A DNA stretch of 64,000 nucleotides from an uncultured Candidatus Saccharibacteria bacterium (GCA_964625065.1 CAZUZL010000004.1:11040-75039), one strand, 5' to 3'. Counted from the stretch's first letter, positions 1,932 to 8,941 are shown. Translations and numbers: made by a program. The notes: generated by a model from the letters alone, not told the origin.

Positions 1932-2906
1932 ATGGTTTTTTTATGCGACAATGTACACATGAAAGATTTAATTATTATCGGCGGTGGGCCCGCAGGTGCA
2001 GGTGCAGCAGTATATGCAGCACGCAAACAACTTAACAGTATGCTTATAGCTGGCGAGATTGGTGGCCAGTCTACAGTTTCAGAAGACATACAAAACTGGA
2101 TAGGTAGCCCGCACATTTCCGGTGTCAATTTAGCTAAAAGCCTTGAAGCCCATGTTAACGAATACAAAGGTAACTTTGTTGAGATTAAAAAGGGCCTATG
2201 GGTATACAACATAACTAAAGAAAAAGACGCTGATGGCCACGAGTATTTTACAGTACATACTAAAAACCATTCAGGTGCAGAAGAATCTTTTGACACTAAA
2301 ACAGTATTAGTTACAACAGGTTCTATACGCCGTAAACTACCTGCAATCGATGCAGACAAATTCGAACATAAGGGTGTTACATATTGCGCATCTTGCGACG
2401 GCCCAGTTTTTTCAGGCCAGGATGTAGTTGTAGTTGGTGGTGGCAACGCAGCATTAGAATCTGCAGCACAACTACTGGCATACTGTAAAACAGTAACGCT
2501 TATAAACAGAACTAAAAACTTTAAGGCAGACCCTGTTACTGTAGAAAAAGTTCTAGCCCACAAAAACCTTACACTTATAGAAAACGCAACAATAGTAAAA
2601 GTTAACGGCAATGCATTTGTCGAATCTATCGACTATGTTGTAGAAGGCCAGGAACCTGTTACTCTACCTACAGCCGGCGTTTTTGTAGAAATAGGTCAAC
2701 TACCTAATACAGACTTTGTTAAGGAACTAGTTGACCTAACACAGTTTGGTAACATTATAGTCGACCCAATGCGCCAAATGTCCAGTATGGCCGGTATATG
2801 GGCCGCAGGCGACTGTACAAACGGTTTGTACCACCAGAACAACATTGCCGCCGGCGACGCTGTAAAAGCCCTAGAAGACATCTACCAGTGGGTAAAGAAG
2901 AATTAA
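1932..2906 (+). CDS. trxB: Thioredoxin-disulfide reductase. The alternative start at 1959 (MKDLIIIGGGPAG) is plausible.
   Basis: FAD motif IIGGGPAGAGAA, redox-active CxxC in CASCDGPVF, NADPH motif VVVGGGNAALE and a C-terminal GDCT motif. Confidence 0.9.
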   Translation: MVFLCDNVHMKDLIIIGGGPAGAGAAVYAARKQLNSMLIAGEIGGQSTVSEDIQNWIGSPHISGVNLAKSLEAHVNEYKGNFVEIKKGLWVYNITKEKDADGHEYFTVHTKNHSGAEESFDTKTVLVTTGSIRRKLPAIDADKFEHKGVTYCASCDGPVFSGQDVVVVGGGNAALESAAQLLAYCKTVTLINRTKNFKADPVTVEKVLAHKNLTLIENATIVKVNGNAFVESIDYVVEGQEPVTLPTAGVFVEIGQLPNTDFVKELVDLTQFGNIIVDPMRQMSSMAGIWAAGDCTNGLYHQNNIAAGDAVKALEDIYQWVKKN

Positions 2907-2942
2907 AAAAAAGCCCCAGTAACCTAATACTGGGGCTTTATG
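2905..2942. terminator. Bidirectional rho-independent terminator between the convergent trxB and LigT-like gene
   Basis: Hairpin gccccagta-acctaa-tactggggc flanked by an A-run and a T-run. A near-identical copy lies at 3631-3666. Confidence 0.7.
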
Positions 2943-2954
2943 TTTTTCATAATA

Positions 2955-3497
2955 TTACTGTCCGCATAACTGTATCGGTATGGGTGCATTATATTTACCC
3001 GTGCCTTGGTCAAATATAAACAGATTAATTTCTGAAACGTTAAACGCTTGTGGTAAATCCAAACCAGATGTTACTTTTCTTAAACCGGACTTAATCTCAC
3101 GATTTGAAATGTTATCAGACATCTTAGCCACCCAAATACATGGGTCATAAATGAGATTTTTTTTCTCACGAGGGTCGTTAAACATTCCTAACGAATTTTC
3201 CATCTTTTGATTTAGTTCTAGTAATTCTTCTGATTTAACAGATATTCCGAAGAAAGCAATAGTGGCTTTTACTTCCGACAAATTAATAGAAAATGGTGAT
3301 ACCGTGTTTGCAATAGAGCGAACAATGGATTCGACAAGTATATTGTCACTATTGATATCAGTATTATTTTGGCCCCATTTTACTGTAATACTACGTTCAA
3401 AATCAGAAGTTTCAAAATGTTCTGATAGTCCTTTTACAGCTTGGTCTATCTTGTTTTTTAATTCGTCATTAATTTTTATGGCTATTGAATATTTCAT
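2955..3497 (-). CDS. 2H phosphoesterase (LigT/ThpR-like) paralog with both catalytic His motifs degenerate
   Basis: It aligns along its length to the downstream paralog at 3673-4305. The positions of HITLK and HITVS read SITVKW and DPCIWVAKM here. Confidence 0.6.
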   Translation of the reverse strand: MKYSIAIKINDELKNKIDQAVKGLSEHFETSDFERSITVKWGQNNTDINSDNILVESIVRSIANTVSPFSINLSEVKATIAFFGISVKSEELLELNQKMENSLGMFNDPREKKNLIYDPCIWVAKMSDNISNREIKSGLRKVTSGLDLPQAFNVSEINLFIFDQGTGKYNAPIPIQLCGQ

Positions 3498-3630
3498 GTT
3501 ATTTGGACTGGTTTAAAGGTGCTTGGTATTATTTTCTTTCTTGTATTATACACCTATTTTACTGAAAAGTCAATATATACCCAGGCATGCAAAAACCACT
3601 ATAAATCAATGCTTCCCGGGCGGAAGAATT

Positions 3631-3666
3631 AAAAAAAAGCCCCAGTAACCTAATACTGGAGCTTTT
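3631..3666. terminator. Terminator hairpin that duplicates the one at 2905-2942
   Basis: About 37 bp, gaagaattaaaaaaaagccccagtaacctaatactgg, are identical at 2896-2940 and 3622-3660. The stem carries one G-to-A change. Confidence 0.6.
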
Positions 3667-3672
3667 AAATAT

Positions 3673-4305
3673 TTATTCACTATCTTCTACCTTTTCATAG
3701 AAATTAGCGTTCCATGGGGCTGAAGTTGTTTCAACATCTTCCTGCATTTCACAAGATATAGGCATTGCATACGGTTCTAACGGTATGTCTATTGTCTTGT
3801 CATACATATTAGTCACATCGTTAAACAAGAATATACAAATTTCTGTCACTGCGAAACTTTTAGGAAGGCCCAAACTAGTAGCCACCGTTTTCTCTACTTC
3901 CTTAATTTTTGGCAAAGTAATATTATCTGATATTTTTGAAACTGTAATATGTGGATTGTAATTATTAAAATCATAATTCTTAACTTCACGATTGTTAAAC
4001 TTTTCCAATGAACGTGCAAAATTTGCATTAAGTTCATGTAGAACTTTTGATTTAGCTGAAATTACAAGATGAGATTCGCCAAACATTTTTACATCTGTCA
4101 TAGAAACTACAAAGGGGTGGAAAGTATTTGCCACTGACCGCACTATAGATTCTATAAGTAAAATGTCTTCGTTATTTTGAGGACCTTTCAACGTAATGTG
4201 TGGCTCTAGTCTAGATTTTACAAAATTATCTGATAGGCCTGTAACGGTTTCAGAAATCTGATCTACAATACTTTTGGGTAATTTTATTCCTATAAAATAT
4301 TTCAT
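3673..4305 (-). CDS. 2H phosphoesterase, 2'-5' RNA ligase (LigT/ThpR) family, with intact catalytic motifs
   Basis: Two H-x-T/S-x motifs, EPHITLKGPQ and YNPHITVSKIS, are separated by about 90 aa. Its length, about 210 aa, is typical of the family. Confidence 0.65.
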   Translation of the reverse strand: MKYFIGIKLPKSIVDQISETVTGLSDNFVKSRLEPHITLKGPQNNEDILLIESIVRSVANTFHPFVVSMTDVKMFGESHLVISAKSKVLHELNANFARSLEKFNNREVKNYDFNNYNPHITVSKISDNITLPKIKEVEKTVATSLGLPKSFAVTEICIFLFNDVTNMYDKTIDIPLEPYAMPISCEMQEDVETTSAPWNANFYEKVEDSE

Positions 4306-4418
4306 TGTTTGTGGGGTTTTTTAATGTGCTTGGTATTTTGTTTATTATTCATATCATAACAGAAAAGACGTATTGTGTCAAACCATATTCTCAAAGGACT
4401 GAGTTTTGGTTTAATTAC

Positions 4419-4449
4419 AAAAAAATCCTTAGTATTTACTAAGGATTTT
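4419..4449. terminator. Rho-independent terminator of the gene at 4470-5093
   Basis: Hairpin atccttagta-ttt-actaaggat followed by a T-run. Confidence 0.6.
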
Positions 4450-4469
4450 AATATTTCAAAATTTGAACT

Positions 4470-5093
4470 TTATTTTTTCATAACTGTAGGAATTTGTTCA
4501 AGAAATTCTGGCAACCACTCTGCGTCGAACCAATATAAAAATGATTTATACACCCCTGTTACCAATTCTGAAATCTTTACAATGTTTATTTCATCGGTAT
4601 GATCAAACGCCTCAAGCATAGCAGCGATTTTTTCTATAAAATACTTAAATGTATCTAATAGTGTCGGCACAACAGGTGTATTTAATTGCTTTATTGCAAT
4701 ATTCGCTATCATATCTTCATCTGTTGGTTTTTCGATCATAGGAAACATATATTCTTTAAAGCCAACAGAATGTGCAATAGAAAGCATGTTTACAATCATT
4801 TTTAGCAAAGCTTTTTTAGAGTCTAGTGCTAAATTTCCCAGTTCATTATCTGGGGTAGTAACCCACTGAATACGTCCAATATCAATTTTTTCTTGGGGTA
4901 AAGCCATGTCGATTTTGTTTACTGATTTAAGCATATGCAATAAACCATGTTTAAGGGCAAATACTAATTTGTCTTTATCAGTATTTAATCTGGCCATTGC
5001 CGGGTAGTTTTGTACATTGTACACGTAGTGTTCATTTACATAAGTAAATGCATCGATAAAATCATTGATCTTGAGGGGTTGTGTTGTGTTCAT
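4470..5093 (-). CDS. Hypothetical protein
   Basis: A 207-aa ORF bounded by a terminator and a promoter region. No motif recognised. Confidence 0.5.
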   Translation of the reverse strand: MNTTQPLKINDFIDAFTYVNEHYVYNVQNYPAMARLNTDKDKLVFALKHGLLHMLKSVNKIDMALPQEKIDIGRIQWVTTPDNELGNLALDSKKALLKMIVNMLSIAHSVGFKEYMFPMIEKPTDEDMIANIAIKQLNTPVVPTLLDTFKYFIEKIAAMLEAFDHTDEINIVKISELVTGVYKSFLYWFDAEWLPEFLEQIPTVMKK

Positions 5094-6185: not shown

Positions 6186-6572
6186 ATGAAAGATTTTGGA
6201 ACTTGGAATAAAGAAAAAATAAACCTTGAAGATACTGGGCACGAAGACCTCTCTTTCCATGAAAGAGAAATATGGTGGTGTTCAATTGGACTTAACATTG
6301 GCGACGAACAAGACGGTAAAAATGAATTATTCGAAAGACCCGTATTAATAATTAAAAAATTTAACAAAAGACTGGCGTGGGCATTACCTATGAGTACAAA
6401 GAAAAAAGATGGTATATACTATCACAATATTGAACATGACGGTAAAATATTTTCAGTTATGTTGTCACAATTAAGGCTATTAAGCACAAAAAGATTTCAC
6501 CGTTATCTTAGAAAAATATCGCCAAATCAGTTTTCCATAATTCAAGATAAATTAATTAAATTGATAAAGTAA
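6186..6572 (+). CDS. PemK/MazF-family endoribonuclease toxin-like protein; no cognate antitoxin gene is adjacent
   Basis: REIWWCSIGLNIGDEQDGKNELFERPVLIIKKFN...LAWALPMST parallels the Kid/PemK core GEIW-x-DP-x-G-HEQ-x-G-x-RP-x-L-I. The -10-like box TAAAAT lies 6 nt before the ATG. Confidence 0.55.
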   Translation: MKDFGTWNKEKINLEDTGHEDLSFHEREIWWCSIGLNIGDEQDGKNELFERPVLIIKKFNKRLAWALPMSTKKKDGIYYHNIEHDGKIFSVMLSQLRLLSTKRFHRYLRKISPNQFSIIQDKLIKLIK

Positions 6573-6892: not shown

Positions 6893-6964
6893 GGCTCTAT
6901 CGTCTAATGGTTAGGACACGGCCTTTTCAAGGCTGTAATCGGGGTTCGATTCCCCGTAGAGTCA
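6893..6964 (+). tRNA. tRNA-Glu (anticodon UUC)
   Basis: Cloverleaf by hand. Acceptor GGCTCTA/TAGAGTC with one G-U pair, D arm GTCTAATGGTTAGGAC, anticodon stem CGGCC/GGCTG with loop TTTTCAA, T arm GGGGTTCGATTCCCC. It closely resembles E. coli tRNA-Glu. No CCA is encoded. Confidence 0.85.
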
Positions 6965-7277
6965 CACAAGCATGTAAATGCAAACTGCTTTGCATTTACA
7001 GCGAAGTGTGAAGGCACAGCGATGTGTTTTGGAGCACTACGACAAAACACCGCGAGCCGGGGTCGCGAACACTTATATAGAATTTGAACGCAGTGAAAAA
7101 TTATATTTAGTGATTCGTGACACACAAAACAAGAAATTCTATTTCGAACACACCGAAAAGGTATACAGCGTCTGTAAGACGAGATTCCCAGTAGCATGAG
7201 TAAATTTAGGGACTCGTGTTATATAAATTAACAATAGCGCATTTAGTATCCGAATAAGTATTAATATATTACAAAAG

Positions 7278-8111
7278 CTATTTAGTATTTTCTACAGTTT
7301 TTAAATTTTCCTCAAAATTTTCTAATAGATCTAATGAATTTAAATCAATATTTTTGAATGCACTGAAGGCATCTTTTTCAGATATTTTATGTGAAATAAC
7401 ACGTGCATTTAATGTTACTACAGAAAGCAATAAATCAATTGTCTTACTAGTAGTGCTTTTATCTTTTTCTAAGTTTACTGACTTTAAAAAGTTTTGGAAT
7501 TTTGTGTTTGAGTATGATTCACTAATGAATTCATCCACTGAACTTAAGCCATAGTGATTATCTATTTCCTCTTTAGGAATATTATCTAAAACTGTTTGAA
7601 AAAGATGCCTATATTTGTTATGTATTGGTAACTTATGAATAGTATTTTTTATTTCAGTGATTGCATAAATCATATTTACGCCTGAAGAAATATCTGCACC
7701 CCTAAAAACGTGATGAAAAAGTTCATGAAGTATTGTTGCATAGAAGTCCCCAACTTCTGCTACATTGGCATATGTACCATCTATTTGCAATGTCTTTCTT
7801 GATGCACTATATCGTGCCATTGTATGATAAAGTTTATCTTGTTTTAAATCACCCAAGTAATCTATTGATTTAAAAACCACCTTAATATCTTTAAGGTTAC
7901 TTAATCCCTTGATTTTTGAAAAAACTTTTTCAAAACCAGCATTAGTTTCAACAGACGATAGTTTATCTATTAATTCCTCAGCGTTCTTTACATTTGCGAT
8001 ACCTAATATAAATATTAGTGGTTCATACGGATTATTCTTTATTTCATCTAGAATTCTTTGTTTTTCAATTCCTTTATTAAAGTTGTTGCTGTTTTCAAGG
8101 TTCATATTCAT
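7278..8111 (-). CDS. Hypothetical protein with an HExxH zinc-metallopeptidase-like motif, in an AT-rich islet beside tRNA-Glu
   Basis: HELFHH motif. GC content is markedly lower than in the flanking genes. It lies between tRNA-Glu and pyk. Confidence 0.5.
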   Translation of the reverse strand: MNMNLENSNNFNKGIEKQRILDEIKNNPYEPLIFILGIANVKNAEELIDKLSSVETNAGFEKVFSKIKGLSNLKDIKVVFKSIDYLGDLKQDKLYHTMARYSASRKTLQIDGTYANVAEVGDFYATILHELFHHVFRGADISSGVNMIYAITEIKNTIHKLPIHNKYRHLFQTVLDNIPKEEIDNHYGLSSVDEFISESYSNTKFQNFLKSVNLEKDKSTTSKTIDLLLSVVTLNARVISHKISEKDAFSAFKNIDLNSLDLLENFEENLKTVENTK

Positions 8112-8143: not shown

Positions 8144-8941
8144 CTACAACTCATTTACCCCGTCGAACAACTTTGGGTGTTTTTCTGATTCGATTATAAT
8201 GCGGTTCATCATGGCCACTGATTCTACTGGGTATTTGCCCTGGGCAGATTCTTCGGACAGCATTACGGCGTCTGCACCACAGAAAACAGCATATGCAACG
8301 TCGGTAACTTCGGCACGTGTTGGGTTTTCGTTTTCTGTCATGGACAACATCATTTGTGTGGCAACTATTACAGGTTTACCAGCAGTTTTACATTTAGCAA
8401 TTATTTCTTTCTCAACAAAAGGTATTTGTTCTAACGGAACTTCGTTACCCATGTCTCCACGGGCTACCATAATGGCGTCTGCAGATTCTATAATTTCGTC
8501 TATTTTTTCTATGGCAACAGCACGTTCTATTTTAGCTATTATGGGCACTACATAACCGTTTTGTTGCATTAGGTTGCGTAAAATTTGTATATCAGATGCA
8601 GAACCAACATACGACATAGCTACGTAGTCTACTTTTTGTTCTTGGCCAAAATGAAGGTCGCGAATGTCTTTTTCAGTTAGTACATCTGTAGAACCATGTT
8701 TAAATTCATGGCCGTCTGTGGCCTGTACACGCGGGCCTGACAAGTCCTGCACTATTGGTATAGAAATGTTCATTTCGTTTGCTACCTGGCGTACAGTGGC
8801 TATATAGCCAGCATGTTCGGCATATGTACCCCAAGAAAAGTTTAGGCGTACAACACCCAGGTTGTTTTGTGCCATTTTTTGTATTGTTTCTAAGTCTTTA
8901 CTTGCCGGACCAATGGTGGCAACAATTTTTACTGATTTCAT
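8144..8941 (-). CDS. pyk: Pyruvate kinase, minimal form: A-domain TIM barrel only, lacking the B-domain insert and the C-terminal regulatory domain
   Basis: Motifs KIVATIGPAS, RLNFSWG, MVARGDMG, TQMMLSM and NPTRAEVTDVA are conserved. The protein is only 265 aa against about 470 aa usually. The segment DLSGPRVQATDG...DLHFG replaces the roughly 100-aa B domain, and the protein stops right after the A domain. Confidence 0.8.
   Translation of the reverse strand: MKSVKIVATIGPASKDLETIQKMAQNNLGVVRLNFSWGTYAEHAGYIATVRQVANEMNISIPIVQDLSGPRVQATDGHEFKHGSTDVLTEKDIRDLHFGQEQKVDYVAMSYVGSASDIQILRNLMQQNGYVVPIIAKIERAVAIEKIDEIIESADAIMVARGDMGNEVPLEQIPFVEKEIIAKCKTAGKPVIVATQMMLSMTENENPTRAEVTDVAYAVFCGADAVMLSEESAQGKYPVESVAMMNRIIIESEKHPKLFDGVNEL

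What the first reader, a model, noticed from the sequence alone, without database searches (positions are those of the whole stretch)
2896..4470. Tandem duplication of a 2H-phosphoesterase gene, with its terminator, in which one copy has lost both catalytic histidines
Two adjacent minus-strand genes are paralogs. They have the same length class, are alignable throughout, share the upstream sequence aaKgtgcttggtatt, and have near-identical 37-bp terminators at 2896-2940 and 3622-3660. The upstream copy keeps both H-x-T/S-x motifs of the LigT/ThpR 2H family (HITLK, HITVS). The downstream copy has SITVKW and CIWVAKM at the same positions, so it cannot use the standard 2H mechanism. The 2H fold is used by 2',3'-cyclic phosphodiesterases and by phage anti-CBASS (Acb1-type) cyclic-oligonucleotide hydrolases. 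An inactive paralog retained beside an active one suggests a binding or sponge role, or regulation of the active enzyme.
Basis: partly seen in the sequence, partly recalled or inferred. Interest (0 to 1): 0.55.

Follow-up and report, generated by a model that had tools for sequence, protein, structure and literature searches.

The report
Histidine-less 2H-fold gene cassette beside trxB
Two neighbouring genes for 2H-phosphoesterase-fold proteins, one with and one without the catalytic histidines, are real, but they are two anciently diverged versions of a swappable gene cassette next to trxB in an uncultivated Minisyncoccia (CPR) bacterium, and the histidine-less version looks like a maintained non-enzymatic protein rather than a fresh duplicate or a dead gene.

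Summary
Two minus-strand ORFs, 3673-4305 (210 aa) and 2955-3497 (180 aa), are homologous (43% identity, E 4e-39). They have 42/43-identical terminators and a shared upstream 12-mer. The catalytic residues change as H36->S, H119->C and T121->W.

The "tandem duplication" reading fails. Synonymous sites between the copies are saturated (pS 0.74), yet the terminators are nearly identical. The same terminator and trxB junction flank single-copy, highly divergent 2H genes in related genomes.

The His-less copy groups with P0007, a second His-less protein (33% identity). P0007 has the same promoter type and the same "GQ" C-terminus, and it is the only 2H gene on its 2.2-kb contig, next to trxB.

The ORF is intact despite the saturated divergence. 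Scaffold positions are conserved and only active-site positions are lost. The predicted fold is confident (pLDDT 91). Each gene has its own strong promoter and terminator. Together these argue for a maintained pseudoenzyme.

In a sister strain the flanks differ by 4.7-7.3%, but the His-less cassette differs at 2 of 767 nt, indicating recent inter-strain exchange.

Nothing supports an Acb1 or defence role, and the ligand is unknown. Interest is moderate: a new variant of a known kind.

The parts
1932..2906 (+). trxB (thioredoxin reductase), convergent with the 2H genes. Its last 10 nt (2897-2906, GAAGAATTAA) are part of the 43-nt repeat.
   Evidence: ORF. Pyr_redox Pfam families on orthologues. 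96.9% aa identity to L002 and 82.3% to L004.
2897..2939 (.). Repeat copy 2: trxB tail plus a bidirectional intrinsic terminator (hairpin 2910-2939) serving trxB and the His-less gene.
   Evidence: The same sequence follows the single-copy gene of L003.
2955..3497 (-). D-type (His-less) 2H-fold gene, 180 aa. It has SITVKW and CIWVAKM in place of the two HxT motifs and lacks the C-terminal tail.
   Evidence: (pLDDT 91.1).
3519..3530 (-). Conserved 5'-leader 12-mer AATACCAAGCAC upstream of the D-type gene.
3545..3573 (-). Sigma-70-type promoter of the D-type gene (TTGACT-17-TATAAT, 11/12). The same promoter type, including the spacer AAAATAGGTG, precedes P0007 in L011.
3612..3626 (-). Junction sequence (cttccgcccgggaag) where homology to the terminator/trxB junction ends. 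This is the left edge of the inserted cassette.
3623..3665 (-). Repeat copy 1: terminator of the A-type gene (hairpin 3635-3666), followed by a 10-nt remnant of the trxB 3' end (3623-3632).
2877..3643 (.). Low-divergence block between two strains: 2 differences in 767 nt, against 4.7-7.3% in the flanks. It is bounded by the trxB 3' end and terminator 1, and marks the recently exchanged D cassette.
3673..4305 (-). A-type 2H phosphoesterase gene, 210 aa. It has both HxT motifs (HITLK, HITVS) and a disordered C-terminal tail that is conserved in sequence (APWNANFYEKVEDSE).
4326..4337 (-). Conserved 5'-leader 12-mer upstream of the A-type gene.
4353..4381 (-). Sigma-70-type promoter of the A-type gene (TTGACA-17-TATGAT, 11/12, with TG extension).
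4470..5093 (-). 207-aa gene of unknown function with its own terminator (4422-4449). It lies upstream of the 2H gene in the window, L003 and L010, but not in L001 or L002.

Best explanation
The two genes are two anciently diverged allelic classes of a single-gene 2H-fold cassette. The cassette sits convergent to trxB and shares a bidirectional terminator with it, in a clade of Minisyncoccia (CPR/Patescibacteria) bacteria.

The A-type (3673-4305) keeps both HxT motifs and a conserved acidic C-terminal peptide, and is probably a YjcG/ThpR-like phosphoesterase. The D-type (2955-3497) has lost all four catalytic-motif residues and the tail, but keeps the scaffold.

In this strain a D-type cassette (promoter, gene and terminator) has been placed by recombination between the A-type terminator and trxB. 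This left 43-bp direct repeats that include 10 nt of the trxB 3' end. The same cassette has very recently moved between two strains by homologous recombination, with crossovers in terminator 1 and in the trxB 3' end.

What is shown: homology, loss of the motifs, divergence saturated in the coding sequence but not in the flanks, a second His-less relative at the same locus, and the low-divergence block.

What is inferred: the D-type is expressed and maintained as a non-catalytic 2H-fold protein (a pseudoenzyme). Most likely it binds, without hydrolysing, the nucleotide or RNA-end ligand of the family. The ligand and the physiological role are not known.
For: Ancient split with recent flanks.
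- A vs D: pS 0.744 (saturated), pN 0.332, 58% nt identity. The terminators are 42/43 identical.
- L003 carries a single gene only 46% identical in aa (59.5% nt) to A. Its flanks are 86% (upstream) and 94-95% (terminator and trxB) identical to the window.
- L004 has FtsZ at 97% and trxB at 82% identity, but its 2H gene is only 28% identical.
- The A-type terminator flank carries the trxB tail ttaattcttc before the junction.

D lineage.
- NJ tree groups D with P0007 at 89% bootstrap.
- BLASTP D vs P0007 is 33%, E 8e-27; A vs P0007 is 30%, E 8e-19.
- D and P0007 share indels, a '...GQ' C-terminus, and the promoter TTGACnTTTnAGnAAAATAGGTGTATAAT. P0007 lies next to trxB.
- P0007 has F/V and G/E where D has S/T and C/W.

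Maintenance.
- The D frame has 0 stops, against 13-25 in its other sense frames. Neutral walks keep the ORF open in 0.5% of runs at p=0.21 and in 0 of 2000 at p>=0.33.
- In family columns of 60-80% conservation, D matches the consensus 15/24 times, the same as A. In columns of >=80% conservation D matches 5/11, against 11/11 for A. Four of the six losses are P35/H36 and H119/T121, at the catalytic motifs; the other two are F4 and P10.
- D equals P0007 in 57% of conserved columns and 24% of variable columns; pN 0.42 < pS 0.69.
- AF2 pLDDT 91.1. Foldseek to CPDase, YjcG and LigT gives TM about 0.7.
- Promoters score 11/12 and both genes have terminators.

Recent exchange.
- Sister strain vs window: pS is 0.183 in trxB, 0.128 in the 207-aa gene and 0.166 in A. 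D has 1 synonymous change in 543 nt.
- The block 2877-3643 has 2/767 differences, Poisson P 5e-18; for synonymous sites only, P 2e-7.

Catalytic consequence. H43A, T45A and H125A are inert in E. coli ThpR (PMC4201822).
Against: Only two D-type sequences are known. Their grouping rests on an NJ tree of fast-evolving sequences, so long-branch attraction is possible, although shared indels, the C-terminus and the promoter type argue against it.

No selection estimate is possible on the D branch alone, because synonymous sites are saturated and the population sample has a single SNP. The D branch is about 3.6 times longer in dN than the A branch (three-taxon calculation), which also fits relaxed constraint.

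The AF2 model is driven by an alignment of homologues, so fold retention is partly assumed.

The strain comparison rests on short Logan contigs from possibly related samples. Strain-mosaic assembly cannot be fully excluded, although alt-specific SNPs at 3644, 3543 and 2976 are consistent in three runs.

There are no expression, binding or activity data. L011 is only 2.2 kb, so an A-type gene elsewhere in that genome is not excluded.
Confidence: 0.6

Rival explanations
1. One reading: a tandem duplication of gene plus terminator within this lineage. The downstream copy then lost its catalytic histidines and now acts on or with the active neighbour as a regulator or sponge.
For: The genes are adjacent, in the same orientation, and homologous throughout. 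The terminators are near-identical and an upstream motif is shared. Close relatives L002 and P0002 have one copy only.
Against: Synonymous sites are saturated between the copies (pS 0.74), whereas A-type orthologues in L001 and L002 differ by pS 0.16-0.17. The split therefore long predates the strains that lack the second copy. The terminators are more alike than neutral sites could be after such a split, and they match the single-copy L003 locus. The D-type groups with P0007, which sits on its 2.2-kb contig without an A-type neighbour.
Confidence: 0.07
2. The His-less gene is a decaying, functionless remnant: a redundant allele trapped in the locus that has not yet been disrupted.
For: It matches no Pfam or NCBIfam model. 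Its dN branch is about 3.6 times longer. The catalytic positions differ freely between D and P0007. The family is eroding in this clade: 5 of 174 members lack a His, and all five rank among the 14 best hits of the family-profile search (ranks 2-14). No orthologue above 34% identity turned up in any database search.
Against: The 180-codon ORF is open in an AT-rich gene whose other frames carry 13-25 stops. Neutral walks almost never keep it open at the observed divergence. Substitutions spare scaffold columns. P0007 is also intact. The 11/12 promoter is conserved between D and P0007. CPR genomes are small and would be expected to delete junk (general knowledge).
Confidence: 0.15
3. The locus is a conflict (arms-race) locus. 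The 2H-fold proteins intercept a nucleotide or RNA>p signal of a phage-defence or symbiosis pathway, and the D-type acts as a non-hydrolysing sponge or decoy that is spreading by a gene-specific sweep.
For: Coding divergence is extreme amid conserved flanks. Omega is elevated at 0.27-0.46 among A-type and other alleles. Flanks and promoters are mosaic. The D cassette was recently exchanged between strains. D has an aromatic W41 at the +5 position of motif 1, where Phe48 of ThpR stacks on adenine. AKAP18 offers a precedent as a non-catalytic AMP-binding 2H domain.
Against: No PADLOC hit for the 2H proteins or their neighbours in the window. No phage relatives. Acb1 is below threshold and structurally distant. 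A single recombination patch needs no selection. No ligand is known.
Confidence: 0.12
4. The D-type has a re-engineered active site (Ser36/Cys120) and still catalyses a reaction by a non-2H mechanism.
For: Ser and Cys are potential nucleophiles. T38 and K40 of motif 1 are retained.
Against: P0007, the only relative of D, has Phe and Gly at these positions, so no alternative catalytic dyad is conserved. Alanine mutants of either His are inert in ThpR.
Confidence: 0.03

Closest known systems
YjcG-like / ThpR (LigT) bacterial 2H phosphoesterases ('2'-5' RNA ligase family protein', Pfam PF13563, TIGR02258)
   Same: The A-type passes PF13563 and has both HxT motifs. A family profile hits B. subtilis YjcG (2d4g) at E 6e-8. 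Both AF2 models superpose on YjcG, TT0787, PH0099, LigT and plant CPDase. The size of about 180 aa is typical.
   Different: The A-type is below the TIGR02258 cut-off (49.5 vs 65.7 bits) and lacks the extended HxTxxF / HxTxxR motifs of ThpR (it has HITLKG and HITVSK). It also carries an extra conserved C-terminal peptide. The D-type lacks both histidines and fails every family model. Both sit in a hypervariable, recombining locus.
AKAP18/AKAP7 central domain (2H fold proposed to be a non-catalytic AMP sensor)
   Same: It is a precedent for a 2H fold used for nucleotide binding rather than catalysis (as cited in PMC4201822). Both models match it in Foldseek (E about 4e-5).
   Different: According to general knowledge, not tested here, AKAP18 retains its HxT motifs; the D-type has lost them. 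AKAP18 is a eukaryotic scaffolding protein. Sequence identity is about 13%.
Phage Acb1 (anti-CBASS cyclic-oligonucleotide phosphodiesterase, PF23474)
   Same: It belongs to the same 2H superfamily. There is a weak motif-2 match for the A-type (E 0.0012).
   Different: The score is below the gathering threshold (19 vs 27 bits). Foldseek TM is 0.37-0.45, against about 0.7 for cellular 2H enzymes. There are no homologues in 50,697 phage genomes or in IMG/VR. The setting is chromosomal, between ftsZ-trxB and a tRNA.
Allelic cassette loci maintained by flank recombination (general class, e.g. variable genes between conserved flanks in recombining bacteria)
   Same: Flanks are conserved at 86-97% and coding sequences are as low as 28-59% identical. 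Promoter types are mosaic. There is a sharply bounded block of recent exchange.
   Different: Here the variable unit is a single small 2H-fold gene with its own promoter and a shared terminator. Two classes have been captured in tandem. No dedicated recombinase or integron-like site was found.

Membership tests
2H phosphoesterase superfamily | Two H-x-T/S-x motifs, one in each lobe | tested here: met
   This row is for the A-type (3673-4305): H36-I-T-L and H119-I-T-V. 169 of 174 family members have both His.
2H phosphoesterase superfamily | Two H-x-T/S-x motifs, tested on the D-type copy | tested here: not met
   The D-type (2955-3497) has S36-I-T-V and C120-I-W-V at the aligned positions. Its only His is H27, and there is no HxT/S anywhere in the protein.
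2H phosphoesterase superfamily | Two-lobed alpha+beta 2H fold | tested here: met
   AF2 models give pLDDT 91.1 for D and 83.3 for A (the A-type tail is disordered). Foldseek probability is 1.00 with TM 0.6-0.74 to 1jh6, 2d4g, 5h7e, 1vdx, 1iuh and LigT. These are predictions driven by an alignment of homologues.
2H phosphoesterase superfamily | Significant match to a curated family model (PF13563 / PF02834) | tested here: inconclusive
   The A-type scores 47.2 bits (cut-off 27) and 26.9 bits (cut-off 23.3). The D-type has no hit at E<=1, and its membership rests on homology to A (E 4e-39).
ThpR/LigT RNA 2',3'-cyclic phosphodiesterase (TIGR02258) | Score above the equivalog cut-off, plus the extended HxTxxF and HxTxxR motifs | tested here: not met
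   The A-type scores 49.5 bits against a cut-off of 65.7. Its motifs are HITLKG and HITVSK, whereas ThpR needs F48 and R130 (PMC4201822). The D-type gives no hit.
YjcG-like group of 2H proteins | Closest sequence and structure relationship to B. subtilis YjcG | tested here: inconclusive
   The family profile hits 2d4g at E 6.2e-8, the best PDB hit. 2d4g is Foldseek rank 1 for A and rank 3 for D. NF010223 scores only 28.7 bits against a cut-off of 129.
Acb1 anti-CBASS phosphodiesterase | PF23474 above threshold, phage-encoded, close structural match | tested here: not met
   The score is 19 bits against 27. TM is 0.37-0.45 to 7t26/7t27. There is no tblastn hit in phage genomes and none in IMG/VR.
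Acb1 anti-CBASS phosphodiesterase | Hydrolysis of cyclic oligonucleotide signals | not testable with these tools
   This needs an enzyme assay.
Recent tandem gene duplication | Coding sequence and flanks of the two units show comparable divergence, and the duplicate is nested within the lineage of its neighbour | tested here: not met
   The coding sequences are 58% nt identical with pS 0.74, whereas the terminator is 98% identical. D groups with P0007 rather than with A (89% bootstrap; an A+D clade appears in 11%).
Pseudoenzyme (maintained non-catalytic homologue) | Catalytic residues lost while the fold and ORF are kept under constraint | tested here: met
   The constraint is inferred from the site pattern, the open ORF and a second intact member, not from a branch-specific dN/dS.
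Pseudoenzyme (maintained non-catalytic homologue) | Expressed protein with a demonstrable non-catalytic function | not testable with these tools
   Only consensus promoter and terminator matches are available.

The most novel reading that the evidence does not exclude
The trxB-adjacent 2H locus of these CPR bacteria is a hypervariable conflict locus. In it, 2H-fold proteins have repeatedly given up catalysis (H->N, K, S, F) to act as non-hydrolysing binders, sponges or decoys for a nucleotide or RNA 2',3'-cyclic-phosphate signal. The His-less D cassette, bounded by 43-bp terminator repeats, is currently sweeping between strains by recombination.
Probability: 0.12. Interest if true: 0.7.

Novelty: new variant of a known kind. 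Interest (0 to 1): 0.4.

Why it matters
If the reading holds, this is a natural, maintained, histidine-less lineage of the 2H phosphoesterase fold in bacteria. It would be a ready-made test of what the fold does when it cannot catalyse (binding, sequestration or partner interaction). In this clade even single-copy family members lose a catalytic histidine.

It also documents, in uncultivated CPR bacteria, a small locus with deep allelic classes. The locus has mosaic flanks and a sharply bounded recent inter-strain transfer. This bears on how much homologous recombination and gene-specific sweeps shape these reduced genomes.

There is also a methodological lesson for genome scanning. Near-identical terminators next to diverged paralogues point to recombination at shared flanks, not to co-duplication.

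The practical weight is limited, because the ligand, the expression and the phenotype are all unknown.

Tried and rejected
- Orthologues of the His-less copy were sought to compute dN/dS. Two word-indexed searches of 5.8 billion proteins returned only the protein itself plus four A/P-type relatives. The exhaustive profile search gave one distant relative, P0007. A branch-specific omega could not be obtained.
- The genome-contig scan gave a single locus, L004.
- The metagenome scan, anchored on trxB, returned only trxB relatives at 53-58% identity. No 2H gene was found downstream of trxB where that region was held and read (L005, L007).
- Exact look-ups of trxB and the 144-aa membrane protein gave contigs that end before the 2H genes. 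P0002's long contigs have no DNA on file, so an 'empty site' (A-terminator-trxB) at high identity could not be verified.
- Acb1/phage origin is rejected.
- Defence-system context is rejected for the window genes. The only PADLOC hit was the L002 methyltransferase to mad2, which is a generic methyltransferase-domain match.
- A known RNA element in the repeat or leader is rejected. Only sub-threshold, terminator-driven Rfam hits were found.
- The terminator as a dispersed repeat is rejected: it has two copies in 64 kb.
- The L002 methyltransferase being present elsewhere in the window is rejected: tblastn found nothing.
- A literature search for His-less or pseudoenzyme 2H proteins found nothing directly relevant.


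Full report
OBSERVATION

The region holds two minus-strand ORFs: 3673-4305 (210 aa, here 'A-type') and 2955-3497 (180 aa, here 'D-type').
- They are clearly homologous: BLASTP gives 43% identity and E 4e-39.
- In the MAFFT alignment, H36/T38 and H119/T121 of the A-type face S36/T38 and C120/W122 of the D-type.
- The D-type protein has one histidine in total (H27) and no HxT/S anywhere. A shifted motif is therefore excluded.
- The A-type passes Pfam PF13563 (47.2 bits, cut-off 27) and PF02834. The D-type matches no Pfam or NCBIfam model.

The 43-nt repeat 2897-2939 / 3623-3665 is 42/43 identical.
- It occurs only twice in the window, with none in shuffles.
- It folds into a 12-13 bp GC-rich hairpin followed by a U-run: -20.7 and -18.6 kcal/mol, z about -5.6.

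Each gene has the best promoter match of the region at the expected place: TTGACA-17-TATGAT at 4381-4353 and TTGACT-17-TATAAT at 3573-3545, both 11/12. The 12-mer AATACCAAGCAC lies 21-33 nt before each ATG.

The tandem pair is also present in three independent Logan assemblies.

CONTEXT

The genes lie between ftsA-ftsZ-trxB (611-2906, + strand) and a low-GC variable stretch. That stretch holds a 207-aa gene of unknown function, a 144-aa membrane protein, a MazF/PemK-like toxin and tRNA-Glu. A locus with 97% identical FtsZ is titled 'Minisyncoccia bacterium', so the organism is a CPR/Patescibacteria bacterium.

NOT A RECENT TANDEM DUPLICATION

Nei-Gojobori counts between A and D give pS 0.744, which is saturated, and pN 0.332. 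Nucleotide identity is 58%. By contrast, A-type orthologues in related genomes differ from the window's A-type by only pS 0.16-0.17 (L001 at 90% aa identity, L002 at 85%). Those genomes carry a single 2H gene. A terminator that is 98% identical cannot have co-diverged with coding sequences that are saturated.

The flank sequences explain this.
- In L003, a single 2H gene (P0005) is only 46% identical in aa (59.5% nt) to the A-type.
- It is followed by the same terminator and runs directly into the trxB 3' end, exactly as the D-type gene does in the window.
- Its upstream region is 86% identical to the window's A-type upstream region, and its downstream region is 94-95% identical to the window.
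- In L004, FtsZ is 97%, the 144-aa protein 89% and trxB 82% identical to the window, but the 2H protein is only 28% identical.

The 2H coding sequence is therefore a hypervariable cassette between conserved flanks.

The flank of the A-type terminator (3623-3632) still carries the last 10 nt of trxB (ttaattcttc on the minus strand). Homology then breaks at 'cgcccgggaag'. L002 has the equivalent remnant, followed by a methyltransferase gene instead. Something has thus been inserted between the ancestral terminator and trxB in both lineages. In the window that insert is a D-type cassette with its own promoter and a second copy of the terminator.

THE D-TYPE IS AN OLD, HIS-LESS LINEAGE

The exhaustive profile search of 1.84 billion representatives found few close relatives: 4 proteins at E<=1e-30. 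Among 174 aligned family members, 169 have both histidines. The five exceptions all rank among the 14 best hits of that search (ranks 2, 3, 5, 7 and 12):
- P0002, 90% identical to the A-type, with H36N;
- P0009 (= L004), with PNIVLK;
- P0014, with K at the first His position;
- the D-type, with S and C;
- P0007, with F and G.

An NJ tree joins D and P0007 with 89% bootstrap. An A+D clade appears in only 11% of replicates. Several features support the grouping:
- BLASTP D vs P0007 gives 33% identity, E 8e-27, against 30% and E 8e-19 for A vs P0007.
- They share an insertion after motif 1, a 3-residue deletion before motif 2, and a C-terminus ending in 'GQ' without the acidic tail.
- They share a nearly identical promoter, TTGAC(A/T)TTT(T/C)AG(C/T)AAAATAGGTGTATAAT, plus the leader 12-mer.

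P0007 lies next to trxB and is the only 2H gene on its 2.2-kb contig. The four catalytic-motif positions differ between the two D-type proteins (S/T/C/W against F/V/G/E). This is what one expects if those positions are no longer constrained.

MAINTAINED OR DECAYING?

Several results point to maintenance.
- The D reading frame has no stop, while its other two sense frames have 13 and 25. In substitution-only neutral walks the ORF stays open in 0.5% of runs at p=0.21, which is half the A-D distance, and in 0 of 2000 runs at p>=0.33.
- In family columns of 60-80% conservation, D matches the consensus 15/24 times, the same as A, and equals A in 19/24. In variable columns D equals A in about 35%.
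- In the >=80% columns D keeps only 5/11, against 11/11 for A. Four of the six losses are P35/H36 and H119/T121, at the catalytic motifs; the other two are F4 and P10.
- D and P0007 agree in 57% of conserved columns and 24% of variable columns, and pN 0.42 is below pS 0.69.
- AF2 gives a confident 2H fold: pLDDT 91.1, pTM 0.85. Foldseek TM is about 0.7 to plant CPDase, YjcG, drCPDase, PH0099, TT0787 and LigT. The model depends on an alignment of homologues.

Other results point to relaxed constraint.
- A three-taxon calculation on the dN values puts 0.34 on the D branch and 0.10 on the A branch.
- D is undetectable by curated family models.

On balance, a maintained non-catalytic protein is more likely than a pseudogene. 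Mutational data on E. coli ThpR show that H43A, T45A and H125A are inert (PMC4201822). D therefore cannot use the 2H mechanism.

RECENT MOVEMENT OF THE CASSETTE

A sister strain (L008, L009, L010) has the same architecture. Its divergence from the window is as follows:
- trxB differs at 4.7% of sites (22 synonymous, 0 non-synonymous; pS 0.183);
- the 207-aa gene differs at 4.8% (pS 0.128);
- the A-type gene differs at 7.3% (22 synonymous, 24 non-synonymous; 18 aa changes; pS 0.166);
- the D-type gene differs at one synonymous site in 543 nt.

The block 2877-3643 has 2 differences in 767 nt. Poisson P is 5e-18 at the flank rate, and 2e-7 on synonymous sites only. The block runs from 30 nt inside trxB to the 3' half of terminator 1. 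This is the pattern expected if the cassette entered one strain by homologous recombination, with crossovers in the two shared flanks.

An alt-specific SNP at 3644 lies within 31 nt of the cassette junction, and the internal SNPs (3543, 2976) are the same in three runs. This argues against a simple strain-mosaic assembly, but read-level phasing is still needed.

WHAT IT IS NOT

- Acb1 fails the Pfam threshold (19 vs 27 bits). It is structurally distant (TM 0.37-0.45) and ranks 25th or lower in BFVD.
- Neither protein has a relative in 50,697 phage genomes or in IMG/VR.
- There is no PADLOC hit for the window genes and no Rfam family in the region.
- The A-type is below the ThpR equivalog cut-off and lacks the HxTxxF / HxTxxR extensions. 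By profile and fold its nearest solved relative is YjcG, a protein of undetermined activity.

MECHANISM AND CONFIDENCE

I commit to the following (overall confidence 0.6).
- The A-type is a probable YjcG/ThpR-like phosphoesterase with an added conserved C-terminal peptide, APWNANFYEKVED. That peptide is identical in the 46%-identical P0005 and is predicted to be disordered.
- The D-type is an independently transcribed 2H-fold pseudoenzyme of an old His-less lineage, captured in tandem by recombination at the shared terminator/trxB junction and recently exchanged between strains.
- The proposal that it binds, without cleaving, the family's ligand is inference. It rests on the retained fold, on T38 and K40, on an aromatic W41 at the position of ThpR Phe48, and on the AKAP18 precedent.

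P0007 has no A-type neighbour on its short contig. Catalytic erosion also affects single-copy members, including an A-type orthologue.

VERDICT

This is a new variant of a known kind: a His-less 2H lineage in a recombining cassette locus of CPR bacteria. Interest is moderate (0.4), because the function is unknown and the evidence base consists of a handful of short contigs.

Noticed in passing
window 6186-6572 (+): MazF/PemK-like toxin ORF (Pfam PF02452, E 2.4e-10). It is inserted between tRNA-Glu and the 144-aa membrane-protein gene and is absent from the same spot in L002 and L004. MazF-type RNases leave 2',3'-cyclic phosphate ends, the substrate class of 2H enzymes (general knowledge). The proximity may be coincidental.
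   Followed up: partly
window 3519-3530 and 4326-4337 (-); L001, L002, L003, L009, L011: The 12-mer AATACCAAGCAC lies 21-33 nt upstream of the ATG. It is conserved in front of every allele class of the 2H gene (A, P and D types) despite three different promoter types, and is missing only in L004. No Shine-Dalgarno sequence is evident. Its role as an operator or leader element is unknown.
   Followed up: partly
A-type residues 196-210 (window ~3676-3720, -): The C-terminal peptide APWNANFYEKVED(S/G)E is identical between the A-type and P0005 although their 2H domains are only 46% identical. It is predicted to be disordered (pLDDT about 41). It looks like a short linear interaction motif. D-type proteins lack it.
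   Followed up: no
L002 194-202, 233-241, 810-818; L003 115-123; L011 1381-1389; L014 4227, 4283; window 6747, 39625, 51499, 56233: A DnaA-box-like 9-mer, TGTGGATAA, recurs between terminators and promoters in this lineage. It is usually followed by a small hairpin (CAGGG...CCCTG). The window has 4 copies against about 1 expected.
   Followed up: partly
L002 1626-2339 (-): In the relative L002, a class-I SAM methyltransferase gene (PF13489) occupies the exact site where the window has the D-type cassette. It abuts the trxB stop codon. No homologue exists in the window (tblastn).
   Followed up: partly
window 7278-8111 (-): A 277-aa ORF with an HELFH (HExxH-like) motif and no hit in Pfam, NCBIfam or PADLOC. 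It lies in the low-GC variable stretch next to tRNA-Glu (6893-6965).
   Followed up: no
P0002 (L001 211-843), P0009 (L004 673-1269), P0014: These are the only 2H genes seen on their (short) contigs, and all have lost the first catalytic histidine (H->N, N, K) while keeping motif 2. All three rank among the 14 best hits of the family-profile search, so catalytic erosion is not restricted to the tandem copy.
   Followed up: partly
L013 (SRR13208889), end of contig 27 nt after the trxB stop: An independent assembly of the same trxB breaks right at the terminator. This is as expected for a repeat longer than the assembly k-mer.
   Followed up: no
window 8144-8941 (-): The pyruvate-kinase-like ORF is only 265 aa, and has the same length in L014. 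This is much shorter than typical pyruvate kinases (about 470 aa, general knowledge).
   Followed up: no
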